A DNA stretch of 64,000 bases from a virus (Duplodnaviria; Caudoviricetes), in the IMG/VR virus record IMGVR_UViG_2654587547_000001, positions 23,156 through 87,155 of that record, one strand, 5' to 3'. Below are positions 17,074-62,020 of this stretch, in pieces (the stretch's first letter is position 1; each line of letters opens with the position of its first letter). The notes beneath the pieces were generated by a model, which worked only from the letters and a program-made list of their open reading frames with translations, was not told the origin of the DNA and made no database searches. A program made the position numbers and the translations under genes.

Positions 17074-17414
17074 GGCGGCTTTTTTTACGTCTATATGGGA
17101 CGCGATGTTGTCGCTTCAAAGGAAAGGCCATGGCTGACGAACATCTGTCCGATGCGTTCATCAAGTCACTGCACGCGCGCGTCGTGCAAATGGAGCAAGA
17201 CATGGCACACAATGCGGAAGCCACCGCGCGGAATACCGATTCAATCGAGACAATCCGCCGGAACACGCAGGACATCGTTGACACGTTCCAAGCGCTGGCG
17301 GGCGGGTTCAAGGTACTGCAAGGGCTGGGCCGGCTGGCAAAGCCGCTTGCGTATATCGTTGGCTTCGTCACTGCTGTTATCACTGCCTACTCGGCGTGGC
17401 GGGGTATCAAATGA
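17074..17414 (+). repeat. Direct repeat copy 1 (holin gene plus leader), paired with 61680-62020
   Basis: Leaders nearly identical (TTTTTTACGTCTATA.GGGACGCGATGTTGTCGCTTCAAAGGAAAGGCCATG); proteins differ at 6 of 94 aa. Confidence 0.95.
17130..17414 (+). CDS. Putative holin
   Basis: 94 aa, C-terminal hydrophobic segment, ATGA overlap with endolysin. Confidence 0.7.
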   Translation: MADEHLSDAFIKSLHARVVQMEQDMAHNAEATARNTDSIETIRRNTQDIVDTFQALAGGFKVLQGLGRLAKPLAYIVGFVTAVITAYSAWRGIK

Positions 17415-17965
17415 AGCTTGGAACCAAGATCGCGGGAGGTGCCGCTGCCCTCGTTGCTTCTGGCGCTTTGACGCTGTTCTCGCCAACGCTGCAATCCTTC
17501 CTTGGCAAGTGGGAGGGCGACGGGCAAAACGTTGTCTACGCCGACAAGCTGGCCCGCGGCCTGCCTACGGTATGCAAGGGCATCACCAAGCACACCAGCC
17601 CTGAGCCATTGGTGGTGGGCGACTACTGGTCGCCGGAGCGCTGCGAGCAGATTGAGCGCCTGGTGGTGAGCAAGGGTCAATTGAAGCTGGCGGACTGCAT
17701 CGACGTGGTGATCAGTCAGCCGATCTTTGACGCCCTGAGCAGCCATGGCCACAACTTCGGCACGCCCAGCACCTGCGCGAGCCGCGCGGTGGGCCTTATC
17801 AATGCCGGCCGGCTGCGAGAAGGTTGCAATGCCCTGGCTCATGCGCCGAACGGGTCTCCAGTCTGGTCCTACGTCACTGATGCCAAGGGCGCTAAGGTCT
17901 TTGTGCAGGGCCTGTACAACCGGCGTCTGGATGAGGAGCGGCTATGTCTCTCGGGGCTGGGCTGA
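17411..17965 (+). CDS. SAR-type endolysin (GH24 lysozyme)
   Basis: Ala/Gly-rich N-terminal anchor; WEG...YADKLA.GLPTVC.G catalytic region; GLYNRR..E. Confidence 0.85.
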   Translation: MKLGTKIAGGAAALVASGALTLFSPTLQSFLGKWEGDGQNVVYADKLARGLPTVCKGITKHTSPEPLVVGDYWSPERCEQIERLVVSKGQLKLADCIDVVISQPIFDALSSHGHNFGTPSTCASRAVGLINAGRLREGCNALAHAPNGSPVWSYVTDAKGAKVFVQGLYNRRLDEERLCLSGLG

Positions 17966-18495
17966 TCGGCTGGAAAGGATACGCGGTGGCCAGCATCGTA
18001 GGCGCGGCACTGTTGGGCGGCGCGATACTTGAGCGCCACTGGTACGGCGCCAGTCAATACCGGGCCGGAGCCGACGCCAAGCAAGCCGAAATCGAGAAAC
18101 GCCAAGCGGCCATCGAGCACGCATGGCAGGAGGAAAGGGATCGTGCTGATGCCAAACACCGCGGCGCCGTCTTGGCGCGCGAACAAATCGAATCGAAGCT
18201 GGCGCAGGCTGAGCGCGATCGTGATGCCGCTTTTGCTCGCATTGCCGGGCTGCGCAAGCAGCTTGCCAGCCGGGGCGCCGCGGCTACCGACGCCGGCGGC
18301 GGATCTGATAGCCCCGGCCCCGACTGGATCGGCCTATTTGGAGAGTGTCTCGGTCGAGCTCAAAGCCTTGGACGACGACTTGGCGAGGTGGGAAAGGATG
18401 CTGCAGGATGGGCTGACCAAGTGAATGGGTTACAGGGTTATATTCAAGGCCTGCGCGGCGCACAGAGGATAAAGGCGCCGGAGCAGATACCCTAA
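17944..18495 (+). CDS. Rz: Inner-membrane spanin
   Basis: N-terminal TM segment plus coiled coil after endolysin; contains embedded lipoprotein ORF. Confidence 0.75.
   Translation: MSLGAGLIGWKGYAVASIVGAALLGGAILERHWYGASQYRAGADAKQAEIEKRQAAIEHAWQEERDRADAKHRGAVLAREQIESKLAQAERDRDAAFARIAGLRKQLASRGAAATDAGGGSDSPGPDWIGLFGECLGRAQSLGRRLGEVGKDAAGWADQVNGLQGYIQGLRGAQRIKAPEQIP
18149..18424 (+). CDS. Rz1: Outer-membrane spanin lipoprotein, embedded in Rz (+1 frame)
   Basis: RBS AGGAAAGG, lipobox LLALPG-C, Pro-rich mature part. Confidence 0.7.
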   Translation: MPNTAAPSWRANKSNRSWRRLSAIVMPLLLALPGCASSLPAGAPRLPTPAADLIAPAPTGSAYLESVSVELKALDDDLARWERMLQDGLTK

Positions 18496-18521
18496 ATTAC
18501 CTATAAGGCTTGGAGCCCGTA

Positions 18522-18797
18522 ATGAAACTGAGATTCGAGAGAATCAAGTCCGTTTACTTCGATCTACCTGCTGTAGGAGCTCAAGTGGCTTTTGCCGTCT
18601 TATCGGACAATCTCACTCCCAATTTGGGTCGAGCGTTCAGTGGAGAGCTGATGGTGAATTTGAAGTTTCAATCGCAAGCGGATTTTGATGCCGTCACCCA
18701 ATCGGATCTCATCAACACTGCCTTTGCCAAGATCGCTCAAGAATTGCCTGAAGCAATGTTGCTTACTGGTGCTGAGTGGCAGCAGTTGATGAACTAG
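18522..18797 (+). CDS. Hypothetical moron protein (lower GC)
   Basis: GGAG RBS, 91 aa, AT-richer than flanks. Confidence 0.55.
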   Translation: MKLRFERIKSVYFDLPAVGAQVAFAVLSDNLTPNLGRAFSGELMVNLKFQSQADFDAVTQSDLINTAFAKIAQELPEAMLLTGAEWQQLMN

Positions 18798-18817
18798 CTA
18801 TCTTCTTCCACAGACGA

Positions 18818-19042
18818 TTAGCCATCCTGCGGCCCGCGCTGCCTGGACAGCTGGATCTCGTCATCCGCCCCGATCTCGCGCAGCCATGCGCCACAGCCCT
18901 CGTCTGGGTAGACAGGGGCTATACGGTGGTCAGGATCTCGGCGGCAATACGGCCTGCGCCCCTGGTCGGTTGTTTCGCCGTGCCAGTGGGTACAGGTCCA
19001 GCACCCGCCGAGCTTTGGGGGCATGGGCTTGAAGTAGGACAT
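18818..19042 (-). CDS. Small Cys-rich protein, probably SOS-regulated
   Basis: 74 aa, CWTCTHW...C...GCGAW; LexA box 2 nt upstream of ATG. Confidence 0.7.
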   Translation of the reverse strand: MSYFKPMPPKLGGCWTCTHWHGETTDQGRRPYCRRDPDHRIAPVYPDEGCGAWLREIGADDEIQLSRQRGPQDG

Positions 19043-19044
19043 TG

Positions 19045-19060
19045 CTGGACAAATATACAG
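19045..19060 (-). promoter_or_regulatory. LexA (SOS) box
   Basis: CTGTATATTTGTCCAG on minus strand fits CTG-N10-CAG. Confidence 0.8.
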
Positions 19061-19180
19061 CAAGGTATGTGGGGGATTTATTGGCAAAGTAGGCGCAATC
19101 CGGCGTAATCGTCGCGGTGGGCGCGAAGCCAAAGCCCAGCAAAATCAACGCCCTAGGGCTATGCGCCTATCGCGTCCGTT

Positions 19181-19227
19181 GACTCATAATCCGTTGGTGC
19201 CGAGTTCGACTCTCGGGGGGCCTACCA
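19181..19227 (+). other. att core: 3' fragment of a tRNA(CAT) (Ile2/Met) at the prophage junction
   Basis: GACTCATAATCCGTTGGTGCCGAGTTCGACTCTCGGGGGGCCTACCA has anticodon loop, T arm and CCA; upstream sequence cannot form the acceptor, D or full anticodon stem. Confidence 0.9.
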
Positions 19228-19235
19228 ATAGATAT

Positions 19236-19270
19236 GCGGGTCTTGGAGCAATCCAAGGCCCGCTTTCTTT
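19236..19270 (+). terminator. Rho-independent terminator after the tRNA fragment
   Basis: GCGGGTCTTGGA-GCAA-TCCAAGGCCCGC then TTTCTTT. Confidence 0.85.
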
Positions 19271-19326
19271 TCCGCAATCGGGTTAAATTTCCGCAAATCC
19301 ATTTTTTGATTTTGGGGGCATCCAGA

Positions 19327-20076
19327 GTGAATCGTGAGTATTTCAGACGAGATATTTTTGATCGAAGCTTCCCCAAGTGGCCATGTCCACACTGTCGCAG
19401 GGGTGAATTGCACCCGATTGCCGAACCGGGCTACGACAGGCCTACTGCTGAGACATTGCGATATGTGCACGATCCAGATCGTGAAGCGGGATGGGTGAGG
19501 CGGCGCTTTTTTCTCCAGTTCAGTTGCCCCTCATGTCCAGAAGGAATGCTTCTGGTTGGTGAGGCGACGGATGATGCTTATCACTATTTTGATGAGAACA
19601 CAGGCGAGGAGGAGCACGGACACTTTGAGGTGGTCTACCCCAAGTACCTTTACCCGGCAGTGAGCTTAATAAACGTACCTGATGCTGCGCCGGCGACGAT
19701 CCGGCAAGCACTTGATGAGGCGGCCGAATTGTTTTGGGTGTCTGGCCAGGCAACGGTGAATGCACTTCGCAAGGCCGTCGAGTGCCTAATGACGGACCAA
19801 GGAATTCCTGGTTTTGGCGCCGACAAAAAATTTGTGCCTCTGCACGATCGAATTGTTGAGTTTTCGAAAGCTCACCCGGACTTCAAGAACTTGCTAACGG
19901 CGGTAAAACTGCTTGGGAATGCAGGAAGTCACGAGGACGTTCCGGATGATCTCGACGGTATGTTGTTCGACGCGCTCGAAATCGTTGAGTTTGTGTTGGT
20001 GAATCTTTATGACAAGCCCATTCTAAAAATGGATGCACTCGCGCAGCGTATCGAGGCACGCTTGAAGCCTCATTGA
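19327..20076 (+). CDS. DUF4145 (HEPN-like) protein with N-terminal Zn ribbon
   Basis: CPHC and CPSC pairs; LRKAVE...L.DRI...KLLGNAGSH; lower GC. GTG 19327 preferred because the 19234 start runs through the terminator. Confidence 0.75.
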   Translation: MNREYFRRDIFDRSFPKWPCPHCRRGELHPIAEPGYDRPTAETLRYVHDPDREAGWVRRRFFLQFSCPSCPEGMLLVGEATDDAYHYFDENTGEEEHGHFEVVYPKYLYPAVSLINVPDAAPATIRQALDEAAELFWVSGQATVNALRKAVECLMTDQGIPGFGADKKFVPLHDRIVEFSKAHPDFKNLLTAVKLLGNAGSHEDVPDDLDGMLFDALEIVEFVLVNLYDKPILKMDALAQRIEARLKPH

Positions 20077-20084
20077 ACATGAGG

Positions 20085-21173
20085 TCATCGTGTGGGTCCC
20101 GCCTTGTCGCCTTTGCGGTGCCGTACATATCGCTCGGTGGTTGATACCGAGCCGTGGCCGAGCTGTTTTTGGGCCTGGCGAATGTCGCCGGCCGATTCGG
20201 TTTTGTCTGTGCCGGCCTTGGCGCGCAGGTCGCGGAACTGGAATTCGGCCTTGGGGACGCCGGCTATTTCCCTGGCCTTGTCGAACCGGTCGCGCAGCGC
20301 ACCTGCGGTCAGCGGCAAGCCGGATTCGTTCATCACCAGGTACAGGCTGACCACCTTGTTCTCAGCGCGGTAGAGCGTCTTTCTTGCCTTGATCCGGTCG
20401 ATCACCTGGGCGAGCTCTCCCGTAATCTCGATCCGTAGTTTCTGGTCTGTCTTGCCCTGGCGCACGTGCAAGAAGCCGTCGCGCATGTCGGTCTCCAGAA
20501 AGCGCAGGGTGTCAGCCGGCCGCTGGCCCGCCAGATAGGCAAGGTCCATGGCGTCCCGTAGCGGCTCGTCAGCGGCCTTCCAGACCTGAGCATAGGTGTT
20601 GTCCTCGACGTAGGTGTCGCGCCCGCGCTCCTTGTTCTTTCGCACGCCTTGAGCCGGGTTTGGTGCGTCGGTCAGACCGATCTCGCGGGCATAGTTGAAA
20701 ATGGCGCTGAACAGCGCGATTTCACGGTTGGCGCGCACGTGGCCGGCATCCGGCGGCACAGGCCGGCCCTTCTCGCGGAACCAGTCCGCCGCTTTCCCCA
20801 TGCGCCAGCGGATGTATCGGGTGACGTGGACAGGCTTGATCAACTCCAGCACCACCGGCGGCTTGTCGAAGATCTCGCACAGGAATTCGAGTTCGATCTG
20901 GTTCCCGTCCTGCGTGCGCGGAGCCTTCGTCGGCACAATGTCGGCGAAGTACCGGTTGGCCGCCTGCCGGAAGGTGACTTGACTGGCGGCGCCCACCGAC
21001 TGCTGCGTCAGTTGCCCCCAGCGGCGCATGGCCTCGACGAAGTCAGACCCCAACGGCTCTTCCTTGCGGGGCTTCCCGCCCAGATCAAAGTAGTAGTAGG
21101 TCTTGGCGCCGCGGTGGCGCGCGCGCATGCCTGGCGGCAGGCGATTGCGGGTAGGCTTGCGCCCCATGCTCAT
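20085..21173 (-). CDS. int: Tyrosine integrase
   Basis: GQRPAD (R), QGKT (K), FRDLRAK, LGH and TERY motifs; near att core. Confidence 0.95.
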   Translation of the reverse strand: MSMGRKPTRNRLPPGMRARHRGAKTYYYFDLGGKPRKEEPLGSDFVEAMRRWGQLTQQSVGAASQVTFRQAANRYFADIVPTKAPRTQDGNQIELEFLCEIFDKPPVVLELIKPVHVTRYIRWRMGKAADWFREKGRPVPPDAGHVRANREIALFSAIFNYAREIGLTDAPNPAQGVRKNKERGRDTYVEDNTYAQVWKAADEPLRDAMDLAYLAGQRPADTLRFLETDMRDGFLHVRQGKTDQKLRIEITGELAQVIDRIKARKTLYRAENKVVSLYLVMNESGLPLTAGALRDRFDKAREIAGVPKAEFQFRDLRAKAGTDKTESAGDIRQAQKQLGHGSVSTTERYVRHRKGDKAGPTR

Positions 21174-21421
21174 GCCCTCCAGGCGTCAGGCGTCCATTCG
21201 GTATTGGCCGGCTCGGCGGCGCGCGGGCGCTGCCCTTCCACGGCGCTGCGCGCGACTATAGCCCGACCCGCGCGGTTGACGTGCGCCGGGTAGCCGTGGG
21301 CCAGCAACCATTCCACCTGCAAGACGGGATAGGGCTTGCCTTTGGTACCGCGGCGGATGCCCGTCATGTCCGCGACCTCGGTTGGGCTTAGGAATGTGTC
21401 CGACGTTTCACGCTCGGTCAT
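21170..21421 (-). CDS. Excisionase-like protein (DUF4224-like)
   Basis: FLSPTEVADMTG...Q.EWL...G......NRAGR.IV; overlaps int start. Confidence 0.75.
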   Translation of the reverse strand: MTERETSDTFLSPTEVADMTGIRRGTKGKPYPVLQVEWLLAHGYPAHVNRAGRAIVARSAVEGQRPRAAEPANTEWTPDAWRA

Positions 21422-21701: not shown

Positions 21702-22217
21702 TTATTGCTCCTTGGTGTCGGTGATGGCGGGCTTCATGAAGGTCAGCCAGTGGGTTCGGTTCAGGCGCCCGACGCGGTGCCCAAATAGGGGCTTGTGGTC
21801 GGTGCAGGCCAGAATCTCGCGCAGCGGGATCTGTGTTTCGTTCCATTTGAAAACCAGCACCCCGAGAGGGCGCAGGACGCGGAAGCATTCCGCCAAGCCC
21901 TGGCGCATGTCATCCTGCCAGTCGGCGCCCAGCTTTCCGTACTTCGCCGCCATCCAGCTACGGGGGCCTGCGCGCACAAGGTGCGGGGGATCGAACGCCA
22001 CCAGGGCAAAGGATTCATCAGGAAATGGCAGCGCGCGGAAGTCCATCTGTGCGTCAGGATGCACATGCACCACGCGGGTGCCGTCATCGCGGTGAGTGCG
22101 GTCAGTTACCGTGATGGTTTCGTCGCGCAGGTCGCCGAACAAAACTCGCTGGTCTGTCGGGTCGAACCACATCATGCGGCCACCGCAGCAGGGATCAAGA
22201 ATCGTCGCTTCACTCAC
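21702..22217 (-). CDS. Class I SAM-dependent (amino-DNA) methyltransferase
   Basis: ILDPCCGGRM motif I, FDPPH catalytic motif, ECFRVL..G.LVFKW. Confidence 0.85.
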   Translation of the reverse strand: MSEATILDPCCGGRMMWFDPTDQRVLFGDLRDETITVTDRTHRDDGTRVVHVHPDAQMDFRALPFPDESFALVAFDPPHLVRAGPRSWMAAKYGKLGADWQDDMRQGLAECFRVLRPLGVLVFKWNETQIPLREILACTDHKPLFGHRVGRLNRTHWLTFMKPAITDTKEQ

Positions 22218-22830: not shown

Positions 22831-24424
22831 CGCTCTCTCCTTTCTCGCCCGTCTGTGTAGCTGTCAAGGATTGCTTGACTACTGAATGCTGGTCAGCGGT
22901 TCCCCACTTCGCGCGGGTAGCGTTGAAACAGTCGGGCGCGCGTCGATTCGGGTGGTTGGGGTCTTTCGACCCGCAGCACAGCCAGTACTTCTGCTGGCCA
23001 TCCCCCGCACCCTTCGCGCAATCCCCGCCGTCCAGAACATCGGCCATGGCTCGACCGCCGAAGCTGCGAGCGATGGCGGCAGCCTCCTTGCATTGCGCTT
23101 CGGTCGGGCCGCCGACCTTGTCAGCCTGGGTTTTGAGGGCGCGTTCGAGTTCGTCGTATGCCTGACGGATACGGGCTACTTCGTCCATGACCGGCGACCG
23201 ATAGATCAGTTCCTGGTCATCTGACTTTCGCGTGTCCGGCCCATCAGCCCTAGCGATGTCGGCAAGTGCCTTGATAACCTTCGATCCGCAAGTCTTGATT
23301 GCCTGGCGCGTAGCGTCCGCCTCGCTGGCCTGGGGCGCGGCACAGGCGCGTGGGTGTAGACGGTCGTATTCCGTCTTAGCTGCTGCGAACGCGGCTTCTC
23401 GATTCGGCCATTCTTTGTTGAACGCCTCACCGCACGCCTTGAACGTGCTGACAGGGGCGTAGCCATTGCCGTCCGTCAGGTACTGGTCTGCGAAGTCGCC
23501 AAAGGCGTCATTGGCGTCGTCGGTATGCGCCTCCCCGGATACAGGGGCGCTTGCCAGCCGTGCTTTCAGTCGCTCCACGGCGTCCATCTGCGCAATGGCG
23601 GCATCGCCGGGGACGCCTGCCATGTTCAGGGCCATGTCCAGATCGTCGTCGCCCGTATTCCAGGTTTCCCGCTCGTCGGCTACAGGGGCGCTTGCCGGCA
23701 GTCGCCGAATGCCAAGCTCCCATTCTTCCAATTCCTCATCCAGGACATTTATGTGCCGCTTAACGTCTTCCACGGAAGTCGCGTAGACCTCGTGACCCAT
23801 GCCGTCGTCACCCGGGACAACTTCCAGCAGGATCGACGTAACAGACTGCTCCCCGACTACAGGGGCGCTTGCCAGGGCGGCGAGTTCTGCTGCAATTCGG
23901 GTTTCCACATTGCGGCGAGCAATCGAACGAACGGACAGCAAGGTGCTGGACACCATGCTTTCGCCGTATTCGCTGACGTGTTCCAGAATTCGTTCCAAGG
24001 GCGAACCCTCGGCGTCCGCAGACTTGCGCCAAAGCTGCGCAGCCAGGAATGGGTCCTTCGCCAGTTGTTCAACCGAAACCCCTTGAGGGTTGCAGGCGCT
24101 GCACGGAATCGACTCCGGGTATCCAGTGGTGTGGCTGGTGTACCAGCCGGGTCCGCCGCATCGCTTGCACCGCTCATCGGCCACCGGCTCGCCCGCCTGC
24201 ACGCCCTCCGCGCGCAGCTTGGACAGCGCATTGACTACGGCGTTGACCATGTTTTTGCGAATATCGAAGGCGACAGACACCGGAGAGGCTACCGGCTCGC
24301 GGCCTTCACGGGCGGCTATGCGGGTCATCGTGTCGTAACACTCTGCGTAGATTTCTAGAGCGCGGCGCACCGCTTCGATTTCGTCATCCGTCAGCCCAGG
24401 CTGGGCGGCGTTGTTCTCAGTCAT
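22823..24424 (-). CDS. Modular early protein with repeated ASAPV linkers and a Zn-finger module
   Basis: ATG at 24424 overlaps upstream stop; CKRCGGPG...CSAC; three exact 16-bp repeats. Confidence 0.75.
   Translation of the reverse strand: MTENNAAQPGLTDDEIEAVRRALEIYAECYDTMTRIAAREGREPVASPVSVAFDIRKNMVNAVVNALSKLRAEGVQAGEPVADERCKRCGGPGWYTSHTTGYPESIPCSACNPQGVSVEQLAKDPFLAAQLWRKSADAEGSPLERILEHVSEYGESMVSSTLLSVRSIARRNVETRIAAELAALASAPVVGEQSVTSILLEVVPGDDGMGHEVYATSVEDVKRHINVLDEELEEWELGIRRLPASAPVADERETWNTGDDDLDMALNMAGVPGDAAIAQMDAVERLKARLASAPVSGEAHTDDANDAFGDFADQYLTDGNGYAPVSTFKACGEAFNKEWPNREAAFAAAKTEYDRLHPRACAAPQASEADATRQAIKTCGSKVIKALADIARADGPDTRKSDDQELIYRSPVMDEVARIRQAYDELERALKTQADKVGGPTEAQCKEAAAIARSFGGRAMADVLDGGDCAKGAGDGQQKYWLCCGSKDPNHPNRRAPDCFNATRAKWGTADQHSVVKQSLTATQTGEKGESDA
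23540..23873. repeat. Three exact 16-bp direct repeats TACAGGGGCGCTTGCC
   Basis: At 23540, 23681 and 23858 (spacings 141 and 177 bp, both multiples of 3); encode ASAPV on minus strand. Confidence 0.92.
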
Positions 24425-26303: not shown

Positions 26304-26307
26304 GCTC

Positions 26308-26535: not shown

Positions 26536-27285
26536 TTACGCGGCCAAGCGCTGGAAGGTCATGCGGCGGTGTGCTTCGCGGGCCTTGTGAACGTCGTCAG
26601 CGCAGTACGCGATCAGTTCGGCAATGCGTCCGGCTTTCCAGTAGTCGTAGACCTGGCTGCCGTCGATCTCGCCCTTACCGGGGAGGCCCAGGGCGGTGCA
26701 GAGGTTGTCCAGCGAGATACGGTTGCCGTGTCCGGCCCATTGGGTCATGGTGTCGAAAACAGAATCGTCCCAGGGACGAGCGCAGAAGGGGATAGCCAGC
26801 GGCGGCTGCACGCCCGTGATGACTGCACGCTGGTATATGAACCGAAGGTCAAAGCCGGTGACGTTGTGGCCGATGAACACCGGGCGGCGGTTCGGGTCGA
26901 TGCCCTGGCGGATCATGTCGAACGCGACGGACAGCGTTTCCGCCTCGGTCGACGCATGCGCAACCACCGGGTCTGCGTCATCAAATGCGAGGCCGATCAT
27001 CAGGACTTGGCCAGATGCACCGTTCAGCGCCGTTTTGCGCCATTCCTGCTCAGCAAGTTCCGGCCCCTTCGATTCTTTGAAGTTGTTCACCCATTGAGCA
27101 ATCATGGCGTCTTTGCTGGTGAACTTGATCTGATCCTTGTCCGTCAGGCCCAGGTCAGCCGCTGCTTGCTCCTTCGTCAGCGTGGACGGCGCCTTGAAGT
27201 TCTCCTTGGCGTCGTCAATGAAAGCTTGCAGCGCGCCTTCACGCATGTCCGGCAAGGTTTCGATATCGAGGTAGACGTGGGTCAT
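26536..27285 (-). CDS. 3'-5' exonuclease (DEDD, RNase H fold)
   Basis: LDIET, GHNVTGFD, YCADDV motifs. Confidence 0.85.
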   Translation of the reverse strand: MTHVYLDIETLPDMREGALQAFIDDAKENFKAPSTLTKEQAAADLGLTDKDQIKFTSKDAMIAQWVNNFKESKGPELAEQEWRKTALNGASGQVLMIGLAFDDADPVVAHASTEAETLSVAFDMIRQGIDPNRRPVFIGHNVTGFDLRFIYQRAVITGVQPPLAIPFCARPWDDSVFDTMTQWAGHGNRISLDNLCTALGLPGKGEIDGSQVYDYWKAGRIAELIAYCADDVHKAREAHRRMTFQRLAA

Positions 27286-27608
27286 TGGCTGTCCTTCGAT
27301 CCAAGCATCTGCATTTGATCCGCGATGATCTCGGTGACGTATCGCTTGGTACCGTCCTTCTCGTATTCACGAGTTTGCATGTGGCCCTGGATGAACACCT
27401 GCTTCCCTTTCTTCAGGTACTCACCGCAAATTTCGGCAAGCTTGCCAAAGGCGGTGACGCGGACCCATTCCGTCCCTTCCTTGCTGCTGGTCTTCCAGCC
27501 GCAGGCAAGCGAGAAGTTGGCGACGGCGGCCCCCTCAGGGGAATACCGCATTTCCACATCCTTGCCGAGACGGCCGATAAATTGGCATTGGTTCAGGTCG
27601 TTGCTCAT
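27282..27608 (-). CDS. ssb: Single-stranded DNA-binding protein
   Basis: IGRLGKD.E.RY...TEW.RV..FGKLAEI..EYLKKG. Confidence 0.92.
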   Translation of the reverse strand: MSNDLNQCQFIGRLGKDVEMRYSPEGAAVANFSLACGWKTSSKEGTEWVRVTAFGKLAEICGEYLKKGKQVFIQGHMQTREYEKDGTKRYVTEIIADQMQMLGSKDSQ

Positions 27609-28222
27609 TACGCTGCCTTCTTGAGTTCGCTCATGCGCTGGTTGAAATGGGCCGTGGCTGCGCGCTTTTGGTCGGCAGTCAGGCCGTTCATGATCTTTAC
27701 GAGGTCCGGTACAGACGCCGCCGCATTCATCTGCGCGGTGACTTCAGCGTCCATTTCGGCGGGTGCCGCTGGGCTGTCGTCATTCGCGGATGCGACTTGG
27801 TGGGTATGCCCGTCCGCGTCGTTGTCGCCCTCGGTGGGGATGCAGAACGCTTGGAACGCGGCGTACTTGTAGGCGGCTGACATTGCCTTGTTGGTGGCCT
27901 TGTCGCCGCTGTCCATCGCCTCGCCAAACGTCTTGACCGTGTGCTTGCTGCCGTCTGCGGTAGACACGAAGTCGAATTCGGCCTCTACCGTGATGTAGAA
28001 CAGCGCACCACCTTGCTTGCTGACGCGCTCCACCGACTCCCGGGAAAGCACACGCGGCAGGATGCACAGCCCCTTGTCGGCCAACAGCGGCGCCAGGGCG
28101 TTGTAGATGTCGTCAATGCCCCGGAAGTTGTACCCGGAGCCCTGCGTGTTCCTGCGGTCCTTGCTGATGCCGATCTTGGCGAGTTCCGCCTGCACGGCAT
28201 TGATTGCCTTGTAGACTTCCAT
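27608..28222 (-). CDS. erf: ERF-family single-strand annealing protein
   Basis: YNFRGIDD, GEAMDSGDKATNKAMSAAYKYA, DNDAD. Confidence 0.9.
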   Translation of the reverse strand: MEVYKAINAVQAELAKIGISKDRRNTQGSGYNFRGIDDIYNALAPLLADKGLCILPRVLSRESVERVSKQGGALFYITVEAEFDFVSTADGSKHTVKTFGEAMDSGDKATNKAMSAAYKYAAFQAFCIPTEGDNDADGHTHQVASANDDSPAAPAEMDAEVTAQMNAAASVPDLVKIMNGLTADQKRAATAHFNQRMSELKKAA

Positions 28223-28296
28223 GGTCTTGCTCCTGATGTTCGAGTTCTTGCTGGTAGGCCATCGCGGCGGATTCGTCGTCGTGGCTCATGGCGTCC

Positions 28297-29394
28297 TCAG
28301 TATGAAATTTTGATTGCGGGGATTTCCCCCTTGGCGATCAGCGTGACGGCCAACTTGGCGCACTCTTCGGTCATGCCGCCTTGCACGAAGGCCGACAGCG
28401 CGGCGCGGTTGACCTTGCCCTTGTGGGCTTTGTCGGCCTCACGACTGGCGGCTTCGGCCTCTTCCGCTGCCTTCGCGTCGGCCTGGCGCTTGATTTCTGC
28501 CTGGCGCGCAGCTTCGGCGGCTTGCTTCTCGCGCTCAAAGCCGGCGATACGATCCTGCTCGGCGCGTTGCTCGGCGGCGATCCTGTCCGCCTTGGCCTGG
28601 GCGGCTGCTTTTTCTGCCTGCTCGGCTTGCAGCTTCAGTTCAAGTTCGCGGCGGTCAGCTGCGGCTTTGGCTTCCTGCTCGCGGCGGATCACGGCCTCGC
28701 GTTCGGCCTGGGCGCGGGCTTCGGCTTCGCGCTGGGCTTGCTCGGCGGCTTCGCGGGCAATGCGCTCTTCGCGCTCTTTCTGCTCGCGGGCAGCTACCTC
28801 GGCACGCAAGCGGGCCAGTTCGGCCTGCTCGGCGTCGTACTTTTCGCGGGCCACCAAACGGTCACGAAGGCCGGACAGCGCCTTGTCCTTAGCTCGGGCG
28901 GCTTCCGCTTCGAATTCTTCCCATTCGGGACCGATGGCGATGGCTTCCACGGCGGCGAGGGCGGCGCGCAGTGATTCTGCGGATTCATTGCAGTTGACGA
29001 CCAGAGACGCAATGCCCTCGACTGCATCCTTGTGACGCTGTACGCGGTCTTCTTCGGCCTGCTCCCACTCCGTCAGCGGCCGGCGCACGTCGTCAGCCAG
29101 GGCGTCCAGCGTGTCGCGCATACGCTTGCGCTCGGCGTCGATGCGCTTCGGCACATCTTTCAGGTCATCCACCAACTGTTTGCCAATCCCGTCCAGGGCG
29201 GTCTTGACCTTGCGTACCTTGAAAGCCAGGCTGGCAATAGCCTCGCGGCCCTTCTTGGTCTTGAGGTCAGGCACATGCCCAGTCACCTCGGCGCGGATCT
29301 TCTCCAGCCAAGGCTCCAGGCCGCTGGGCTTGGAGTACACGGCCAGCGCGGATTCCTTCGGCGGCAGTTCCGCAAGTTCGGTCGTCTCGGTCAT
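28297..29394 (-). CDS. Coiled-coil phage protein (TolA-like repeats)
   Basis: GREAIASLAFKV...PKRIDAERKR.RD.LD.L...VRRPLTEWE; Ala/Glu/Arg-rich. Confidence 0.8.
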   Translation of the reverse strand: MTETTELAELPPKESALAVYSKPSGLEPWLEKIRAEVTGHVPDLKTKKGREAIASLAFKVRKVKTALDGIGKQLVDDLKDVPKRIDAERKRMRDTLDALADDVRRPLTEWEQAEEDRVQRHKDAVEGIASLVVNCNESAESLRAALAAVEAIAIGPEWEEFEAEAARAKDKALSGLRDRLVAREKYDAEQAELARLRAEVAAREQKEREERIAREAAEQAQREAEARAQAEREAVIRREQEAKAAADRRELELKLQAEQAEKAAAQAKADRIAAEQRAEQDRIAGFEREKQAAEAARQAEIKRQADAKAAEEAEAASREADKAHKGKVNRAALSAFVQGGMTEECAKLAVTLIAKGEIPAIKISY

Positions 29395-29556
29395 GTCAGT
29401 CCTTTGCGGCGTATGCGGTTTTGCTGCCGCCGTCCTGGGTGGTGAGGGTGGGGGATTGGGCGTCAAGCGTCGGGCCCAGTACGCAGGACATGAAGACGCC
29501 GGCGCAGAGGGCAGCGGCACCGATCAGAAGGTCGCCGTGGGCGCGCAGGAGGCGGA

Positions 29557-31818: not shown

Positions 31819-32934
31819 TTACGAGCGACGCCACTGCCCTGATTCATCATCGCGTAGGCGGGAACCCGCCCAAACTACCTGGCCAAGCACGCGCACCGGG
31901 TGCCCGTTCTCAAGCGGAATATCTGGATAAGCTGGATTGAAGGACCGCGCAACCCAATGGTGGGTAAGCTTGTCGCGCGCGACGGTCTTCACGATCATCT
32001 TGCCGTCATAGTTGATCGCATAGACGCCACCAGCGGCCAAGTCGCGGATCGTCAGTTCCTCATTCGGCACGACCAGTAGGGCAGCGCCATCCCTGATGAC
32101 GGGTTCCATACTGTCGCCTTTTGCATAAACCACCCGTGCTTTGCCAGAGTCGGCCCCAACTTCCCGCAGGAACGAGCGGCGAAATTGGATCACGCCAGTT
32201 TGCAGTTCGTCCTGGTTTTCGATCCCGTCGCCTGCTGCTAAGCGCACCTCGGCCAATTCGGGGACTTTTTCGAACTTGTCGTTTGCCGCGTGCGGCTCGC
32301 CTGGCGCCACATTCGCGACCACGCCCACCTGCGTGCTGAGCCGAATCTTAGGATCACGTTCAGCTTGGGCCGTAGTCCTACCGCCTTCCCACGCGGCAGG
32401 CAAGCCCGGAATTCGCATAGGGAATGCATCGTCAGCATGGTCCATATCGATCAAACCGCCTGGCGTGTGCGTGCGCAGGCTCGCCGGGGCGGCTTTCAGC
32501 ACAGGGGCGGGGGTGGGGGTGGGTGCCACATTGACGCCCAACCGAAGCTGCGCGATTGCCAAGGCTAGCGCGCCCTGCAACGCGCTTAACTGCGCTGGAG
32601 GCAAGGCACGCACTTGCTCTTCAGGAATGTCGGGAAACGGCCAAGGGGCTGGCGCGGGGGAGGGGGCCGGCGCGTCTCCAGGCTGACCAACACCTTTGCG
32701 TTTTGGCCCAACGCCGTCATACAGCCACTGCGCGTTGACCCGCAGCAACGGTGCGACCTTCATGCAGGTCGCCATGTCCATGCCATTGGATCCGTTGAAC
32801 CAATGCGTCGCCGCCCCAGATGAAGCGTCTGCTGCCTTCCAAATATCCGTTTTCGTAAGGCGCGGCTCGCCCGCGTCCGAGCGACGGGCCGCTTCTTCCT
32901 CGAAGGCCTGCTTGATTCTTTCCTGAAAAGTCAT
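31819..32934 (-). CDS. cI: CI-like repressor (HTH plus S24 peptidase)
   Basis: N-terminal HTH, LAAG cleavage site, GDSMEP (Ser) and IVK (Lys); divergent from cro. Confidence 0.93.
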   Translation of the reverse strand: MTFQERIKQAFEEEAARRSDAGEPRLTKTDIWKAADASSGAATHWFNGSNGMDMATCMKVAPLLRVNAQWLYDGVGPKRKGVGQPGDAPAPSPAPAPWPFPDIPEEQVRALPPAQLSALQGALALAIAQLRLGVNVAPTPTPAPVLKAAPASLRTHTPGGLIDMDHADDAFPMRIPGLPAAWEGGRTTAQAERDPKIRLSTQVGVVANVAPGEPHAANDKFEKVPELAEVRLAAGDGIENQDELQTGVIQFRRSFLREVGADSGKARVVYAKGDSMEPVIRDGAALLVVPNEELTIRDLAAGGVYAINYDGKMIVKTVARDKLTHHWVARSFNPAYPDIPLENGHPVRVLGQVVWAGSRLRDDESGQWRRS

Positions 32935-33226: not shown

Positions 33227-33231
33227 CCGCA

Positions 33232-52053: not shown

Positions 52054-52054
52054 C

Positions 52055-59212: not shown

Positions 59213-59679
59213 TGAAAACTTACGCTCGAATTTACAACGGCGCCGTCGCTGAACTGTTCGAAACGCGTGGCGACATTGCGGAAATGTTTCACCCTTCGCT
59301 TGTGTGGGTTGAGGCGCCACAAGGCGTTGAAATTGGATACCTGTACGATGAAGGTGTTTTCTCGGCGCCCGAAACGGCGTTGACGGCCGCCGAAATCGAG
59401 GCGCGGAAGGTGGCGCTTGTTCAATCGTTCATGGACGCGGCGGCGCGCTCCTTGCGTTATGACTCCATCGCAAATGCCATCACCTACGCCGACGAACCGG
59501 CGGTGCCGAAGTTCCAATCAGAAGGGCAGGCGTTCCGCGCGTGGCGCAGCCTGGTGTGGGCGCGCTGTTACGAGATCCTCGCCGATGTCGAGGCTGGCGA
59601 GCGCGACGTTCCGTCTGACGGCGAACTTATAGACCAGTTGCCGCGATTGCAATTGCCAGGAAGCGGCGCTGGGAATTAG
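59212..59679 (+). CDS. Tail fibre assembly / chaperone protein
   Basis: MKTYARI..G.V.E; D.AA....YD.I..A.TY....F..EG.AF.AWRS.VW. Confidence 0.72.
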   Translation: MKTYARIYNGAVAELFETRGDIAEMFHPSLVWVEAPQGVEIGYLYDEGVFSAPETALTAAEIEARKVALVQSFMDAAARSLRYDSIANAITYADEPAVPKFQSEGQAFRAWRSLVWARCYEILADVEAGERDVPSDGELIDQLPRLQLPGSGAGN

Positions 59680-59700
59680 GAGCGGCAGCGGTAATGGTGG

Positions 59701-61614
59701 CTAGTCAAGCGGTATCGACTTCGCCACCACCTTCGCCCCGTCGGTGGTTAGGTGCCCGTCATCCCAAGTGGTAAAGCTCGTCGGGCTATCGTTCGTCCTA
59801 ACAAGGCAGCCGTCGTTGTTGCATAAGCTGTCGAAGGCAGAAACATAGGTGATTCTTTCGGCTTTCGCGATTTTGCGAAAGGTCGAATCAATACTCCGGA
59901 TCATCGGGCTTAGGGGTGTTTGGAGGCGGGTCGGAGCTTCTTGCGAAATGGCCCCACTTTTCCAGGTCTTCAGTACCAGGCTGGGCAAATTCTCGGGCCA
60001 ACGTGGCGCGGGGCCAACAAGTATCACGTTTTTCACACCCGCAGCTTTGACTGAGCGAATTGTCAGAATCAAGGCATCTCGTTCGTCTGACTGCTTTTCC
60101 CAGTCTTTGGTGTATTGATCCCAGACAGCGAACATCAAGACCGTGGCGTTCGGATGTTGTTTGATCAATGACAGGGTGAATGCGTTACCGGCCTTGCAGG
60201 TGTCGTATTGGCTATCCAGCATGGGAGGACAACTATTGCGGGTCGTCTGGGCGATTGAATATCGGTCGCCCAAGGTTGCCAATACCCCGGGGTAGAGCCG
60301 GGCAGCAAACGAATCACCCCAAACAATCAGCGATTTCCCGCCTGATCGATCCAGGTTCTCGAAGCACTCTGGAGCAAATGCGGAGCCGGATGCCTTGGCA
60401 TTCAGCCAGCATATGGATCCTCTTGCATCGCCTTTGAATTGGTAGTTATAGGTGGCTACCGCCTGCATCGCTTCGGGCAGACGCGAAGGGACCCCCTGAC
60501 TGGCGACGGCCTGAGCGCCCAGCGCGCCTGCAATAACGAGCGTGCCCCCCAGCGCTGGTATGGCGATCCGCGGCCGCATGGACATACGCAAGGGTTTTTC
60601 AATGAAATGGTAGGTGAGAGCAGCAAGAGGGACGCTCGCCAATGCCAGTGCGATCCTTGTCCCCTGTTGTAGGTCTGGATCCAGTAGCTTCCCGAACGAA
60701 ATAAGCGGCCAGTGCCAGAGGTAGAGCGGGTAGCTGATCAGACCGATGTAGACGAGAACACGGTTGCCGAGAATGCTCCGTCCCAGCGTAGATCGATTGG
60801 CGGTAGCCAGAAGAAGCACCGCTCCGGAAACGGGGATTAGCGCCCACCATCCCGGGAATGCGCGATGGCTATCGAGAAGCACTGCGGCGCCCACGATAAG
60901 GACCAGGCCGAGCGCCGTTGCCAAATTGCTGATGGCGCCAGACATGCGATGCAGGATTGTGTCGGGACGCAGCATCAGGTAGGCAATGGCTGCGCCAGAG
61001 AGAAGTTCCCAGAATCGAGTGTGTGGCAAGAAGAAAACCTCAACCGGGTGCCCTTGAATGCGCCCGACGTTGAGCAGAAACGAAATTATCGCGATGGCCG
61101 CTATCGTCGGGAGACATTTGTTCTTTCTGAAAGCGAACAACAAGATAGCCGGATAGATCAGGTAGAACTGCTCTTCGATTCCCAACGACCATAGGTGCAT
61201 CAGCGGCTTCAGTTCCGAGGCCGTATTGAAGTAGCCGTCCTGCTGCCACAGTACGAAGTTCTGAAGGAAAGTTGCTCCTCCGATTATCTGAATGCCAAGC
61301 TGACTAAATTCCTGTGGCATCAGAAGTATCCAGCCAGCAGCATATGTCGCAACCAGCACTGTCACCAGCGCGGGTAGCAGTCTCCGGGTCCGGGATAAGT
61401 AAAACCCCGCAAAGCTGAACGTGCCTTGATGAAGCTTCCGGAAGATTATGGAAGAAATCAAGAAGCCGGATATGACGAAGAAAACGTCCACGCCAACGAA
61501 GCCGCCGGTAAATAGGTCGGGTAGCGCGTGGTAAATGACGACGGAAATTATCGCGACAGCTCTAAGGCCATCTATGTCTGGTCGATAAGAAATCCCGTGG
61601 CTGGCGTTTTTCAT
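59701..61614 (-). CDS. Acyltransferase_3 plus SGNH O-acyltransferase (OafA-like moron)
   Basis: YRPDIDGLRAVA, GVDVFFVISGFLI, HLWSLGIEEQFY, ISYPLYLWHWP, then GDS and DDGH SGNH motifs; lower GC. Confidence 0.93.
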   Translation of the reverse strand: MKNASHGISYRPDIDGLRAVAIISVVIYHALPDLFTGGFVGVDVFFVISGFLISSIIFRKLHQGTFSFAGFYLSRTRRLLPALVTVLVATYAAGWILLMPQEFSQLGIQIIGGATFLQNFVLWQQDGYFNTASELKPLMHLWSLGIEEQFYLIYPAILLFAFRKNKCLPTIAAIAIISFLLNVGRIQGHPVEVFFLPHTRFWELLSGAAIAYLMLRPDTILHRMSGAISNLATALGLVLIVGAAVLLDSHRAFPGWWALIPVSGAVLLLATANRSTLGRSILGNRVLVYIGLISYPLYLWHWPLISFGKLLDPDLQQGTRIALALASVPLAALTYHFIEKPLRMSMRPRIAIPALGGTLVIAGALGAQAVASQGVPSRLPEAMQAVATYNYQFKGDARGSICWLNAKASGSAFAPECFENLDRSGGKSLIVWGDSFAARLYPGVLATLGDRYSIAQTTRNSCPPMLDSQYDTCKAGNAFTLSLIKQHPNATVLMFAVWDQYTKDWEKQSDERDALILTIRSVKAAGVKNVILVGPAPRWPENLPSLVLKTWKSGAISQEAPTRLQTPLSPMIRSIDSTFRKIAKAERITYVSAFDSLCNNDGCLVRTNDSPTSFTTWDDGHLTTDGAKVVAKSIPLD

Positions 61615-61670
61615 TCAAGTCATCCGGTGGTTGCGGCAGCATCATACGACACGATAAGAGGTTACATATC

Positions 61671-61692
61671 GCCCGCTTCGGCGGGCTTTTTT
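61671..61692 (+). terminator. Terminator upstream of lysis cassette
   Basis: GCCCGC-TTCG-GCGGGC-TTTTTT. Confidence 0.88.
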
Positions 61693-62020
61693 ACGTCTAT
61701 AGGGGACGCGATGTTGTCGCTTCAAAGGAAAGGCCATGGCTGACGAACATCTGTCCGACGCCTTCATCAAGTCACTGCACGCGCGTGTCGTGCAAATGGA
61801 GCAAGACATGGCCCATAACGCGGAAGCCACCGCGCGGAACACGTCATCAATTGAGACGATTCGACAGAACACGCAGGACATTGTGGACACCTTCCAAGCT
61901 TTGGCGGGTGGCTTCAAGGTCCTCCAGGGGCTGGGGCGAGTCGCCAAGCCACTGGCGTACATCGTGGGCCTAGGGACGGCAATCATCACTGCATATTCTG
62001 CATGGCGAGGGATCAAATGA
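61680..62020 (+). repeat. Direct repeat copy 2 (holin gene plus leader), paired with 17074-17414
   Basis: Near-identical to copy 1. Confidence 0.95.
61736..62020 (+). CDS. Putative holin
   Basis: 88/94 aa identical to 17130-17414; ATGA overlap with endolysin. Confidence 0.7.
   Translation: MADEHLSDAFIKSLHARVVQMEQDMAHNAEATARNTSSIETIRQNTQDIVDTFQALAGGFKVLQGLGRVAKPLAYIVGLGTAIITAYSAWRGIK

What the first reader, a model, noticed from the sequence alone, without database searches (positions are those of the whole stretch)
17074..62020. Near-identical holin repeat in two unrelated prophages could loop out a 44.6-kb chimeric phage with a hybrid attP
Seen: a ~340-bp direct repeat shared by a podovirus and a myovirus, with start codons 44,606 bp apart and 88/94 aa identity. 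Inference: recombination between the copies would excise a circle holding the prophage 1 endolysin and spanins, the att junction (phage arms on both sides, so attP-like) and all of prophage 2 from integrase to acyltransferase. That is an integrase-independent route to a complete mosaic genome, leaving prophage 1 with the other lysis module. Prophage 2 encodes ERF, SSB, NinB and a resolvase that could promote it.
Basis: partly seen in the sequence, partly recalled or inferred. Interest (0 to 1): 0.7.

Follow-up and report, generated by a model that had tools for sequence, protein, structure and literature searches.

The report
Shared lysis gene in tandem prophages
Two different prophages sitting side by side at one tRNA gene each carry a copy of the same small lysis gene, which is an ordinary trace of phage gene shuffling and not a special route to a new hybrid virus.

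Summary
The repeat is real. Window 17072-17414 and 61678-62020 match at 291 of 343 nt (84.8%). The two 94-aa ORFs match at 88 of 94 residues, with starts 44,606 bp apart. It consists of a conserved lysis-operon leader plus a putative holin gene. The hosts are a BcepC6B/BPP-1-like podovirus and an E217/IFTN-like myovirus, integrated in tandem at one Achromobacter-type tRNA-Met.

Prophage 1's P arm, a 47-nt tRNA-Met 3' block and prophage 2's P' arm abut at 19066-19300.

Four points weaken the interpretation:
- The prophages are not unrelated. They share at least 9 collinear direct repeats, and two are better recombination substrates: 379 bp at 98.7% and 1129 bp at 88%.
- The hybrid attP lacks both P-arm TTCCGCAA motifs found in 3 of 3 native Int2-type attR sites. 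I therefore predict the chimera cannot integrate.
- The two copies are not each other's nearest relatives.
- No recombinant junction and no natural example of the predicted junction was found.

The mechanism itself is already documented (PMC3945230). This is ordinary lysis-module mosaicism, of low to moderate interest.

The parts
17063..17082 (+). Terminator-like hairpin plus T run upstream of lysis cassette 1. Homology with copy 2 begins in its 3' arm.
   Evidence: alignment
17072..17129 (+). Leader, copy 1: T run, a conserved CGTCTATA.GGGACGCGATG block and a short upstream reading frame. It matches copy 2 at 55/58.
17130..17414 (+). 94-aa putative holin, copy 1. It has one weakly hydrophobic C-terminal segment.
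17411..17965 (+). Endolysin 1 (GH24 Phage_lysozyme) with an N-terminus that I read as SAR-like. Its start overlaps the holin stop (ATGA).
17944..18495 (+). Spanin 1 (i-spanin). A frame with a lipobox is embedded at 18029-18424 and is probably the o-spanin.
18510..19132 (.). Small uncharacterised ORFs at the right end of prophage 1. A homologue of the 18776-19108 frame lies near the att end of L003.
19066..19180 (+). P arm of prophage 1 (Int1 type). It is conserved with the attR of L019, L024 and L090.
19181..19227 (+). 3' 47 nt of tRNA-Met(CAT), running from two bases before the anticodon loop to CCA. This is the att core shared by both prophages.
19229..19300 (+). P' arm of prophage 2 (Int2 type): hairpin at 19236-19263 and two TTCCGCAA motifs at 19270-19277 and 19289-19296.
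19234..20076 (+). DUF4145 gene, whose true start is probably near 19328. It is an insertion of about 790 bp between the P' arm and the int2 stop.
20085..21173 (-). Integrase 2 (tyrosine recombinase). Its homologues at 90-95% identity lie about 80 bp from an intact tRNA-Met in Achromobacter genomes.
21170..21421 (-). Excisionase 2.
23849..24227 (+). Window copy of a 379-bp direct repeat shared with prophage 1 (contig 3222-3600). Identity is 98.7%, with perfect tracts of 147, 103 and 95 bp.
27282..28222 (-). SSB (27282-27608) and ERF recombinase (27608-28222) of prophage 2.
28286..29414 (+). Window copy of a 1129-bp direct repeat shared with prophage 1 (contig 7333-8461). Identity is 88.2%. It lies in a phrog_1376 gene.
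31831..32479 (+). Window copy of a 649-bp direct repeat at 78%, in the S24 repressor genes.
59701..61614 (-). AT3+SGNH O-acyltransferase. It is the last prophage 2 gene inside the predicted circle.
61671..61686 (+). Terminator hairpin upstream of lysis cassette 2.
61678..61735 (+). Leader, copy 2. Its 41-bp core (61672-61712) is also conserved in prophage 2 backbone relatives that carry a different holin.
61736..62020 (+). 94-aa putative holin, copy 2.
62017..62511 (+). Endolysin 2 (GH24) with an N-terminus that I read as SAR-like.
62490..62996 (+). Rz-like i-spanin 2, with an embedded Rz1-like o-spanin at 62674-62958.

Best explanation
The repeat is one shared module in two mosaic temperate phages that lie in tandem at a single tRNA-Met gene of an Achromobacter-type host. 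The module is the conserved 5' leader of the lysis operon plus a 94-aa putative holin gene. This module circulates among Alcaligenaceae phages. It is found with two endolysin types, two spanin types and at least three virion backbones. Its left edge, the leader, and its right edge, the holin stop overlapping the endolysin start, are recurrent exchange points. Its presence in both prophages reflects acquisition from that common pool.

Shown:
- the repeat itself;
- the tandem att architecture;
- the module's mosaic distribution;
- the other, better repeats between the two prophages.

Inferred:
- Homologous or homeologous recombination between the copies, by host RecA or by the ERF recombinase that each prophage encodes, could loop out a 44,606-bp circle able to grow lytically. 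That circle would carry the prophage 2 replication, packaging and virion genes, plus the endolysin and spanins of prophage 1.
- This event is only one of at least nine possible loop-outs, and not the most likely.
- Its product carries a mismatched attP, with an Int1-type P arm and an Int2-type P' arm, so it should not integrate by Int2.
For: Repeat.

Backbones: window; left half of prophage 1: int1, ERF, YqaJ, SSB, repressor, NinB, DnaB, TerS, portal, capsid. The closest cultured phages are the Bordetella avium vB_BaM-IFTN phages (sheath 74%) and Burkholderia BcepC6B, KL4 and E332 (portal 52-53%).

Tandem att site:
- The 47-nt block at 19181-19227 is identical to the 3' part of tRNA-Met genes that ARAGORN calls next to int2 homologues in A. 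insuavis, A. deleyi, A. marplatensis, one metagenome-assembled genome and A. piechaudii.
- The left flank matches the attR of L019, L024 and L090.
- The right flank matches the int2-adjacent arm.
- int1 and int2 are unrelated.
- A. insuavis itself has a tandem array, with 3 copies of the block 45.4 and 43.6 kb apart.

Module mobility:
- 32 viral-contig loci hold the gene. An endo2-type gene follows in 22, an endo1-type in 5, and neither in 5.
- The loci span podovirus and two myovirus backbones.
- Among prophage 2 backbone loci with at least 3.5 kb downstream, 0 of 32 hold it (48 examined).
- Among prophage 1 backbone loci with at least 3 kb downstream, 2 of 42 hold it (57 examined).
- The leader precedes the 94-aa gene in some loci. 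In prophage 2 backbone relatives it precedes a 102-aa phrog_2359 holin. L016 has both leaders.

Other repeats.

att motifs.

Literature:
- In PMC3945230 (passages and sections 6-7 read), lambda recombined with the Rac prophage (88% over 703 bp, longest perfect tract 49 bp) at about 2e-6.
- In the same paper, an Erf/Exo pair from phage D3 was as efficient as lambda Red on 78%-identical substrates.
- The abstract of PMC2327257 reports that the lambda Red/Gam pathway recombines genes that are 22% diverged.
Against: The module is rare in both backbones (0 of 32 and 2 of 42), yet it is in both neighbours. This is somewhat unexpected if the two acquisitions were independent, and it could hint at local exchange that I did not resolve.

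The holin function is not demonstrated. No holin family model matches. All 64 homologue clusters that carry a name are called 'hypothetical protein'. The hydrophobic segment scores 1.54 and 1.39 on a 19-residue Kyte-Doolittle window, below the customary threshold of 1.6.

The prediction that the hybrid attP is non-functional rests on the lambda paradigm, which I recalled and did not test for these integrases.

The contig comes from a metagenome, and the linkage across the 47-nt core could not be checked independently.
Confidence: 0.75

Rival explanations
1. The holin repeat is a functionally significant, integrase-independent excision route. It yields a complete mosaic phage that can also lysogenise through its hybrid attP.
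For: The geometry and gene content are correct. The hybrid attP is real. Both prophages encode ERF. The repeat (84.8%, longest tract 56 bp) lies within the range where lambda-Rac recombinants were obtained (PMC3945230, sections 6-7). Natural pairings of this holin with either endolysin type exist, so a hybrid cassette should lyse.
Against: Better repeats exist elsewhere in the same array. The P arm of the junction has 0 TTCCGCAA motifs, against 2 in 3 of 3 native Int2-type attR sites. The predicted junction appears in 0 of 32 holin loci, 0 of 48 prophage 2 backbone loci and 0 of 69 acyltransferase loci. The two copies rank only 5th to 19th among each other's relatives in the coding segments.
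Confidence: 0.1
2. Assembly artefact. The two prophages sit at the same tRNA-Met in different cells of the sample, and the assembler joined them across the shared 47-nt core. No intramolecular loop-out would then be possible.
For: The source is a metagenome. The core bin has depth 58 against about 8 in the flanks. Independent k-mer contigs of the probable source run end inside the core (records 7 and 8), and other contexts of the core are present in the sample.
Against: Depth is similar on the two sides: 8.4-9.7 against 7.8. The exact holin 1 protein is recorded on a 172-kb contig. Tandem arrays at this very tRNA-Met exist in an isolate genome. The repeat itself, at 85% identity, cannot be a collapsed duplicate.
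Confidence: 0.1
3. The repeat records a recent direct transfer or gene conversion between these two co-resident prophages.
For: The module is rare in both backbones but present in both neighbours. The leader segment ties for best match at 55/58. Early regions hold blocks of 97-100% identity, so the two elements or their ancestors have exchanged DNA.
Against: In the three coding segments, the other copy ranks 7th, 19th and 17th for copy 1, and 5th, 6th and 11th for copy 2, among 32 other sequences. The 5'-to-3' decline in identity is family-wide. Overall divergence is 15%.
Confidence: 0.05

Closest known systems
Homeologous recombination between temperate phages and resident prophages by Rad52-like recombinases (De Paepe et al. 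2014, PMC3945230; Martinsohn et al. 2008, PMC2327257)
   Same: The substrates are diverged direct homologies of a few hundred bp with short perfect tracts. The phages encode an ERF-family recombinase with SSB. Lysis genes are among the exchanged modules: lambda-Dlp12 recombinants that replaced R and Rz were viable (PMC3945230, section 7).
   Different: Here no recombinant has been observed. The partners are two adjacent prophages on one molecule, so a single crossover excises a circle instead of swapping a marker.
Modular lysis cassettes of lambdoid and other temperate phages (holin, endolysin, spanins); named from recall
   Same: The gene order is the same, start and stop codons overlap, and the modules exchange independently.
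   Different: The first gene is an unannotated 94-aa family. It is absent as a full-length match from 50,697 deposited phage records, where only 2 partial hits at 39-40% identity appear.
Tandem prophage arrays at tRNA genes, for example the A. insuavis LMG 26845 array found here (G001)
   Same: The same tRNA-Met is used, the same 47-nt block appears at each junction, and an Int2-type phage is one member of the array.
   Different: The order is reversed. In A. insuavis the Int2-type phage lies next to the intact tRNA, and its partner is a third phage type.
Bordetella avium phages vB_BaM-IFTN1-8 (prophage 2 backbone) and Burkholderia phages BcepC6B, KL4 and E332 (prophage 1 backbone)
   Same: Sheath 74% identical, and portal 52-53% identical. 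The IFTN phages carry a lysozyme 67% identical in DNA to endolysin 1.
   Different: None of them carries the 94-aa gene.

Membership tests
Holin (functional class) | Small protein with at least one transmembrane domain | tested here: inconclusive
   There is one C-terminal hydrophobic segment at residues 69-87. Its 19-residue Kyte-Doolittle score is 1.54 (copy 1) and 1.39 (copy 2), below the customary 1.6.
Holin (functional class) | Gene immediately upstream of the endolysin in a lysis cassette | tested here: met
   The stop overlaps the endolysin start in both cassettes. An endo1- or endo2-type gene follows in 27 of 32 related loci.
Holin (functional class) | Match to a described holin family model | tested here: not met
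   Pfam gives only DUF7760, below its cut-off. PHROGs gives no holin family. All named homologues are called 'hypothetical protein'.
Holin (functional class) | Occupies the slot of a recognised holin | tested here: met
   In prophage 2 backbone relatives, the same leader precedes a 102-aa phrog_2359 holin.
Holin (functional class) | Forms membrane lesions that time lysis | not testable with these tools
   This needs expression and lysis assays.
Hybrid attP from tandem integration at a tRNA gene | A partial 3' tRNA copy at the junction, with no complete tRNA there | tested here: met
   ARAGORN finds no tRNA in the window. The 47 nt at 19181-19227 are identical to the 3' part of tRNA-Met genes called in L046-L049 and L058.
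Hybrid attP from tandem integration at a tRNA gene | Left flank is a phage P arm, and right flank is the P' arm of the second phage | tested here: met
   The left flank is conserved with the attR of L019, L024 and L090. The right flank is conserved with the int2-adjacent arms of 4 genomes.
Hybrid attP from tandem integration at a tRNA gene | An intact tRNA at the outer left end and a second fragment at the outer right end | not testable with these tools
   The contig starts at the int1 stop codon and ends at the SRAP start codon. The flanks are not held.
Functional attP for Int2 (lambda-type, arm sites on both arms; the requirement is recalled) | Candidate arm-type motif TTCCGCAA on the P' arm | tested here: met
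   There are 2 copies, as in all 4 int2-adjacent arms examined.
Functional attP for Int2 (lambda-type, arm sites on both arms; the requirement is recalled) | Candidate arm-type motif on the P arm | tested here: not met
   There are 0 copies in the 260 nt left of the core. Native Int2-type attR sites carry 2 (one on each strand) in 3 of 3 cases.
Substrate for Rad52-like homeologous recombination | Direct homology of at least 100 bp at more than 70% identity, with a phage-encoded Rad52-like recombinase | tested here: met
   The repeat is 343 bp at 84.8%. ERF (PF04404) is present in both prophages.
Substrate for Rad52-like homeologous recombination | Recombinant junction observed | tested here: inconclusive
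   Only contigs are held for the runs. No joints were reported, and contigs break at the 56-nt identical tract.

The most novel reading that the evidence does not exclude
A tandem array of two mosaic prophages at one tRNA-Met, with nine collinear homeologous repeats and two ERF recombinases, acts as a standing generator of hybrid phages on induction. The 44.6-kb holin-junction chimera would be one viable product. Its mixed attP would still work, because both unrelated integrases use the same 47-nt tRNA block.
Probability: 0.1. Interest if true: 0.55.

Novelty: new member of a known kind. Interest (0 to 1): 0.25.

Why it matters
If such arrays do throw off hybrids at measurable rates, they would offer a natural, culturable setting for measuring how phage mosaics arise. 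A. insuavis LMG 26845 has a similar array and could serve. As it stands, the finding documents routine module sharing. The by-products may be more useful than the predicted chimera: an unannotated candidate holin family restricted to Alcaligenaceae prophages, a conserved lysis-operon leader that marks exchange boundaries, and a tRNA-Met hot-spot used by two unrelated integrases.

Tried and rejected
I used the search for related loci instead, as the message advised.
- att repeat inside the contig: there is no exact repeat of 10 nt or more between 18400-20200 and 62900-64000. A 12-mer shared with contig position 25 is within chance expectation, about 2.5 by my arithmetic. The outer att sites lie outside the contig.
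- Reads: the runs that hold the stretch are kept as contigs only. Laid on 16500-20300, they show no joints. They break inside the 47-nt core and inside the 56-nt identical tract, so they can neither show nor exclude recombinant molecules or the linkage across the core. Run X2 left parts of the stretch uncovered at depth 3-4, which says nothing.
- The exact 68-nt hybrid junction gave 0 matches in viral contigs and 0 in metagenome contigs. Exact matching is strict and the window's own record is left out, so this is weak.
- Gene conversion between the two copies: rejected.
- Rfam on 18900-19500 gave no tRNA hit for the fragment, only sub-threshold matches.
- PADLOC on the junction genes gave no hit for DUF4145, the small ORFs, phrog_32761 or SRAP.
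- The ESM Atlas returned only 'hypothetical protein' clusters and holds no structure.
- Earlier findings of this scan: none on record.
- I did not fold the 94-aa protein or run a complex prediction, because neither would decide the question.


Full report
**Observation.** The repeat is present as described. The repeat finder gives 17072-17371 against 61678-61977, 300 nt at 86%, start-to-start 44,606. Counted without gaps over the whole shared block, 17072-17414 against 61678-62020, identity is 291/343 (84.8%). It drops to 23/72 immediately upstream and 23/86 immediately downstream. Chance is excluded: the binomial probability of 258/300 matches is about 1e-101. The ORFs 17130-17414 and 61736-62020 are each 94 aa and 88/94 identical. 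'Near-identical' holds for the proteins only. The longest perfect DNA tracts are 56 bp (17097-17152), then 26, 23, 20, 15 and 15 bp.

**Setting.** The 'genome' held for this window is one 87,155-bp virus record, and the window is its last 64 kb.
- The record begins at the stop codon of a 331-aa integrase and ends at the start codon of an SRAP gene. It therefore looks trimmed at gene boundaries, and the outer att sites are not held.
- Prophage 1 runs from contig position 1 to window 19227. It is a complete temperate podovirus with int1, ERF, YqaJ exonuclease, SSB, S24 repressor, NinB, DnaB, Sf6-type TerS, portal, GP7 capsid, Bbp16, nozzle, SLT protein and tailspike. Its portal is 52-53% identical to those of Burkholderia phages BcepC6B, KL4 and E332.
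- Prophage 2 runs from window 19229 past 64000. It is a temperate myovirus with int2, xis, methyltransferase, exonuclease, SSB, ERF, S24 repressor, Cro, NinB, an HNH/YbcO-like nuclease, replication initiator, DnaB-like helicase, TerS, TerL, portal, and E217-type capsid, sheath, tube and baseplate proteins. Its sheath is 74% identical to those of Bordetella avium phages vB_BaM-IFTN1-8.
- I found no RusA- or RuvC-type resolvase.

**The junction.**
- Window 19181-19227 is a 47-nt block running from two bases before the anticodon loop of tRNA-Met(CAT) to the CCA end. ARAGORN finds no complete tRNA in the window.
- The same 47 nt form the 3' part of complete tRNA-Met genes lying about 80 bp beyond the stop of int2 homologues (90-95% identical) in A. 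insuavis, A. deleyi, A. marplatensis and one metagenome-assembled genome, and next to a partial homologue in A. piechaudii.
- Right of the block, the window has a hairpin (19236-19263) and two TTCCGCAA motifs. This sequence matches the one between the tRNA and int2 in those genomes, and it is identical to A. marplatensis through 'CCGCAATCGG'.
- Left of the block, 19066-19180 is conserved with the attR of three other viral contigs, L019, L024 and L090.
- The two integrases are unrelated: 25% identity over 60 residues.
- So both phages target the same tRNA-Met, and the junction is P arm (phage 1), core, P' arm (phage 2).
- The DUF4145 gene (to 20076) is an insertion of about 790 bp between the P' arm and the int2 stop. 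A 51%-identical version sits in the same place in L035.
- Tandem arrays at this site are natural. A. insuavis has three copies of the block, 45.4 and 43.6 kb apart. A. deleyi has two copies 43.4 kb apart, bounding a single prophage with the prophage 2 backbone.

**What the repeated unit is.** Homology starts in the 3' arm and T run of a terminator-like hairpin and ends exactly at the holin stop, which overlaps the endolysin start.
- The leader (a G+C-rich arm, a T run, then CGTCTATAGGGGACGCGATG) occurs 30 times in the loci fetched up to then.
- In loci of the 94-aa family, the gene starts 23 nt after the leader.
- In prophage 2 backbone relatives (L066, L070-L074, L076, L078-L080, L083, L085, L095), the leader's own ATG starts a 102-aa protein that matches phrog_2359 'holin'. 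In L077 the leader is followed by a different 96-aa protein.
- L016 carries both leaders 1.2 kb apart, the first followed by a degenerate copy of the 102-aa gene.
- So the 94-aa gene occupies a holin slot.
- Otherwise the holin call is weak. There is no holin model hit. Named homologues among the 64 clusters, from Achromobacter, Alcaligenes, Bordetella and one Methylobacterium record, are all called 'hypothetical protein'. The single hydrophobic segment scores just under the usual threshold.
- Both endolysins are GH24 enzymes with hydrophobic, Gly/Ala-rich N-termini. I read these as SAR-type. That label is recalled and was not tested.

**Distribution.**
- The 94-aa gene was found in 32 viral-contig loci. 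An endo2-type gene follows in 22, an endo1-type in 5, and neither in 5, of which three are truncated.
- The backbones include prophage 1-like podoviruses (L017/L121: virion protein 75%, holin 80%, endo2 91%, span1 63%) and a second myovirus lineage whose baseplate J is only about 25% identical to that of prophage 2.
- Of 48 loci with the prophage 2 backbone, 32 extend at least 3.5 kb downstream, and 0 of those hold the gene, even at E 1e-3 with no coverage filter. Five carry an endo1-type gene at 57-61% identity.
- Of 57 loci with the prophage 1 backbone, 42 extend at least 3 kb downstream, and 2 hold the gene.
- Against its closest backbone relatives, prophage 2 loses DNA homology at 58464, in the tail fibre. 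Homology returns only in the 41-bp leader (61672-61712) and, for some relatives, in the spanin or SRAP region.
- A distant lineage (L176, L177) has the same order: tfa, acyltransferase, holin, endo2, spanin, SRAP. Prophage 2's right arm therefore looks imported as a block.
- No deposited phage genome carries the gene. Of 50,697 records, 2 give partial hits at 39-40% identity.

**No recent exchange between the two copies.** I compared segment by segment against 32 other sequences: the other copy plus 31 of the 32 holin loci, with L032 left out. The other copy ranks 1st (tied, 55/58) only in the leader. In the three coding segments it ranks 7th, 19th and 17th for copy 1, and 5th, 6th and 11th for copy 2. 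The decline in identity from 5' to 3' is a property of the whole family.

**The holin repeat is not the only one, nor the best.** BLAST of prophage 1 against prophage 2 over the whole contig gives 17 direct, collinear matches. Nine were realigned:

| Repeat | Length | Identity | Longest perfect tracts |
|---|---|---|---|
| contig 7333-8461 / window 28286-29414 | 1129 bp | 88.2% | 82, 70, 45 |
| contig 3222-3600 / window 23849-24227 | 379 bp | 98.7% | 147, 103, 95 |
| repressor genes | 649 bp | 78.1% | 32 |
| holin block | 343 bp | 84.8% | 56 |
| window 33217-33396 | 180 bp | 80.6% | 18 |
| four short blocks | 44-65 bp | 97-100% | 44-55 |

A single crossover at any of them would also release a circle of 42.9-44.6 kb. 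'Two unrelated prophages' is therefore an overstatement.

**The predicted product (inference).**
- A crossover in the holin block gives a 44,606-bp circle. It would hold the leader of copy 2, a holin that is mostly copy 1, endolysin 1, spanins 1, the small ORFs, the hybrid attP, DUF4145, and int2 through the acyltransferase.
- It would have prophage 2's replication, packaging and virion genes and a complete lysis cassette. It is no larger than prophage 2 itself, which is at least 44,772 bp in the contig. Lytic viability is plausible.
- Lysogeny is doubtful. TTCCGCAA occurs twice on every int2-adjacent arm (4 of 4) and twice on the P arm of every native Int2-type attR (3 of 3: A. deleyi, the A. 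insuavis junction, A. marplatensis). It occurs 0 times in the 260 nt of prophage 1's P arm.
- In the lambda paradigm (recalled), integrase needs arm sites on both arms.
- The reciprocal product would leave prophage 1 between an Int1-type attL and an Int2-type attR, and probably unable to excise.

**Direct tests.**
- The stretch is held by a probable source run and a few others, all from metagenomes and kept as contigs only.
- Laid on 16500-20300, the contigs show no joints and break at the two short repeats. This test could not decide. It does give similar depth on the two sides of the junction: 8.4-9.7 against 7.8.
- The predicted acyltransferase-holin-endolysin 1 junction occurs in 0 of 32 holin loci, 0 of 48 prophage 2 backbone loci and 0 of 69 acyltransferase loci, whose best identity to the window's enzyme is only 49%.
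- The exact 68-nt hybrid junction was not found in viral or metagenome contigs.

**Literature.**
- From PMC3945230 I read the search listing, matched passages, and sections 6 and 7. Lambda recombined with the Rac prophage (88% over 703 bp, longest perfect tract 49 bp) at about 2e-6. Recombinants that took lysis genes from Dlp12 were viable. A D3 Erf/Exo pair matched lambda Red on 78%-identical substrates.
- From PMC2327257 I read the outline and abstract. The lambda Red/Gam pathway recombines genes that are 22% diverged, about 100-fold better than host RecABCD.
- The proposed mechanism is therefore established in kind. What is specific here is only the particular pair of substrates.

**Verdict.** The feature is a routine mosaic module in a tandem prophage array. 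The loop-out is possible but unobserved, not privileged among the possible crossovers, and predicted to give a phage that cannot integrate.

Noticed in passing
window 17072-17129 and 61678-61735; loci L003-L095: A conserved lysis-operon leader (terminator 3' arm, T run, CGTCTATAGGGGACGCGATG) precedes two unrelated first genes in different phages. In the window, its ATG opens a 10-codon mini-ORF that overlaps the start of the 94-aa gene. I read it as a recurrent module boundary.
   Followed up: partly
L016:3337-4900: Two copies of the leader lie 1.2 kb apart. The first is followed by a degenerate 102-aa-type holin, the second by the 94-aa gene and an endo2-type endolysin. This looks like a footprint of cassette replacement.
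   Followed up: no
G001:C2:40373-129441 (loci L060, L063, L065, L067-L069): A. insuavis LMG 26845 carries two prophages in tandem (45.4 and 43.6 kb) at the same tRNA-Met, giving three copies of the 47-nt block. Its second prophage pairs an endo1-type endolysin (92%) with a span2-type spanin (68%) and has no 94-aa gene.
   Followed up: partly
window 19181-19227: Two unrelated tyrosine integrases (int1, int2) use att sites whose identity to tRNA-Met starts at the same base.
   Followed up: partly
window 19234-20076: A DUF4145 / phrog_1305 'DNA binding protein' gene with lower G+C is inserted between the P' arm and int2. A 51%-identical version is in L035. It has no PADLOC hit.
   Followed up: partly
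window 58465-63300: Compared with its closest backbone relatives, prophage 2 has a replaced right arm: the fibre C-terminus, tfa, acyltransferase and the lysis cassette. A similar gene order occurs in L176 and L177, on a different myovirus backbone.
   Followed up: partly
window 23522-23879: Three 40-nt direct repeats (68-78% identical, spaced 141 and 177 nt) lie inside the 614-aa ORF 22823-24667. This region also holds short blocks shared with prophage 1. Unexplained.
   Followed up: no
window 21702-22448 and 24421-25179: Prophage 2 carries a type II / orphan DNA methyltransferase (PADLOC PDLC03288, E 2e-77) and a PAPS-reductase-like protein (phrog_424, with a weak SspD match).
   Followed up: no
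contig ends (contig position 1; window 64000): The record starts at a stop codon and ends at a start codon, so it appears trimmed at gene boundaries. L010/L035, a related record, ends at the same SRAP start codon.
   Followed up: partly
window 12728-14389: A D-glucuronyl C5-epimerase-like gene lies on the opposite strand between virion genes and the tailspike of prophage 1. Homologues at 57-58% follow the lysis cassette in L025 and L026.
   Followed up: no
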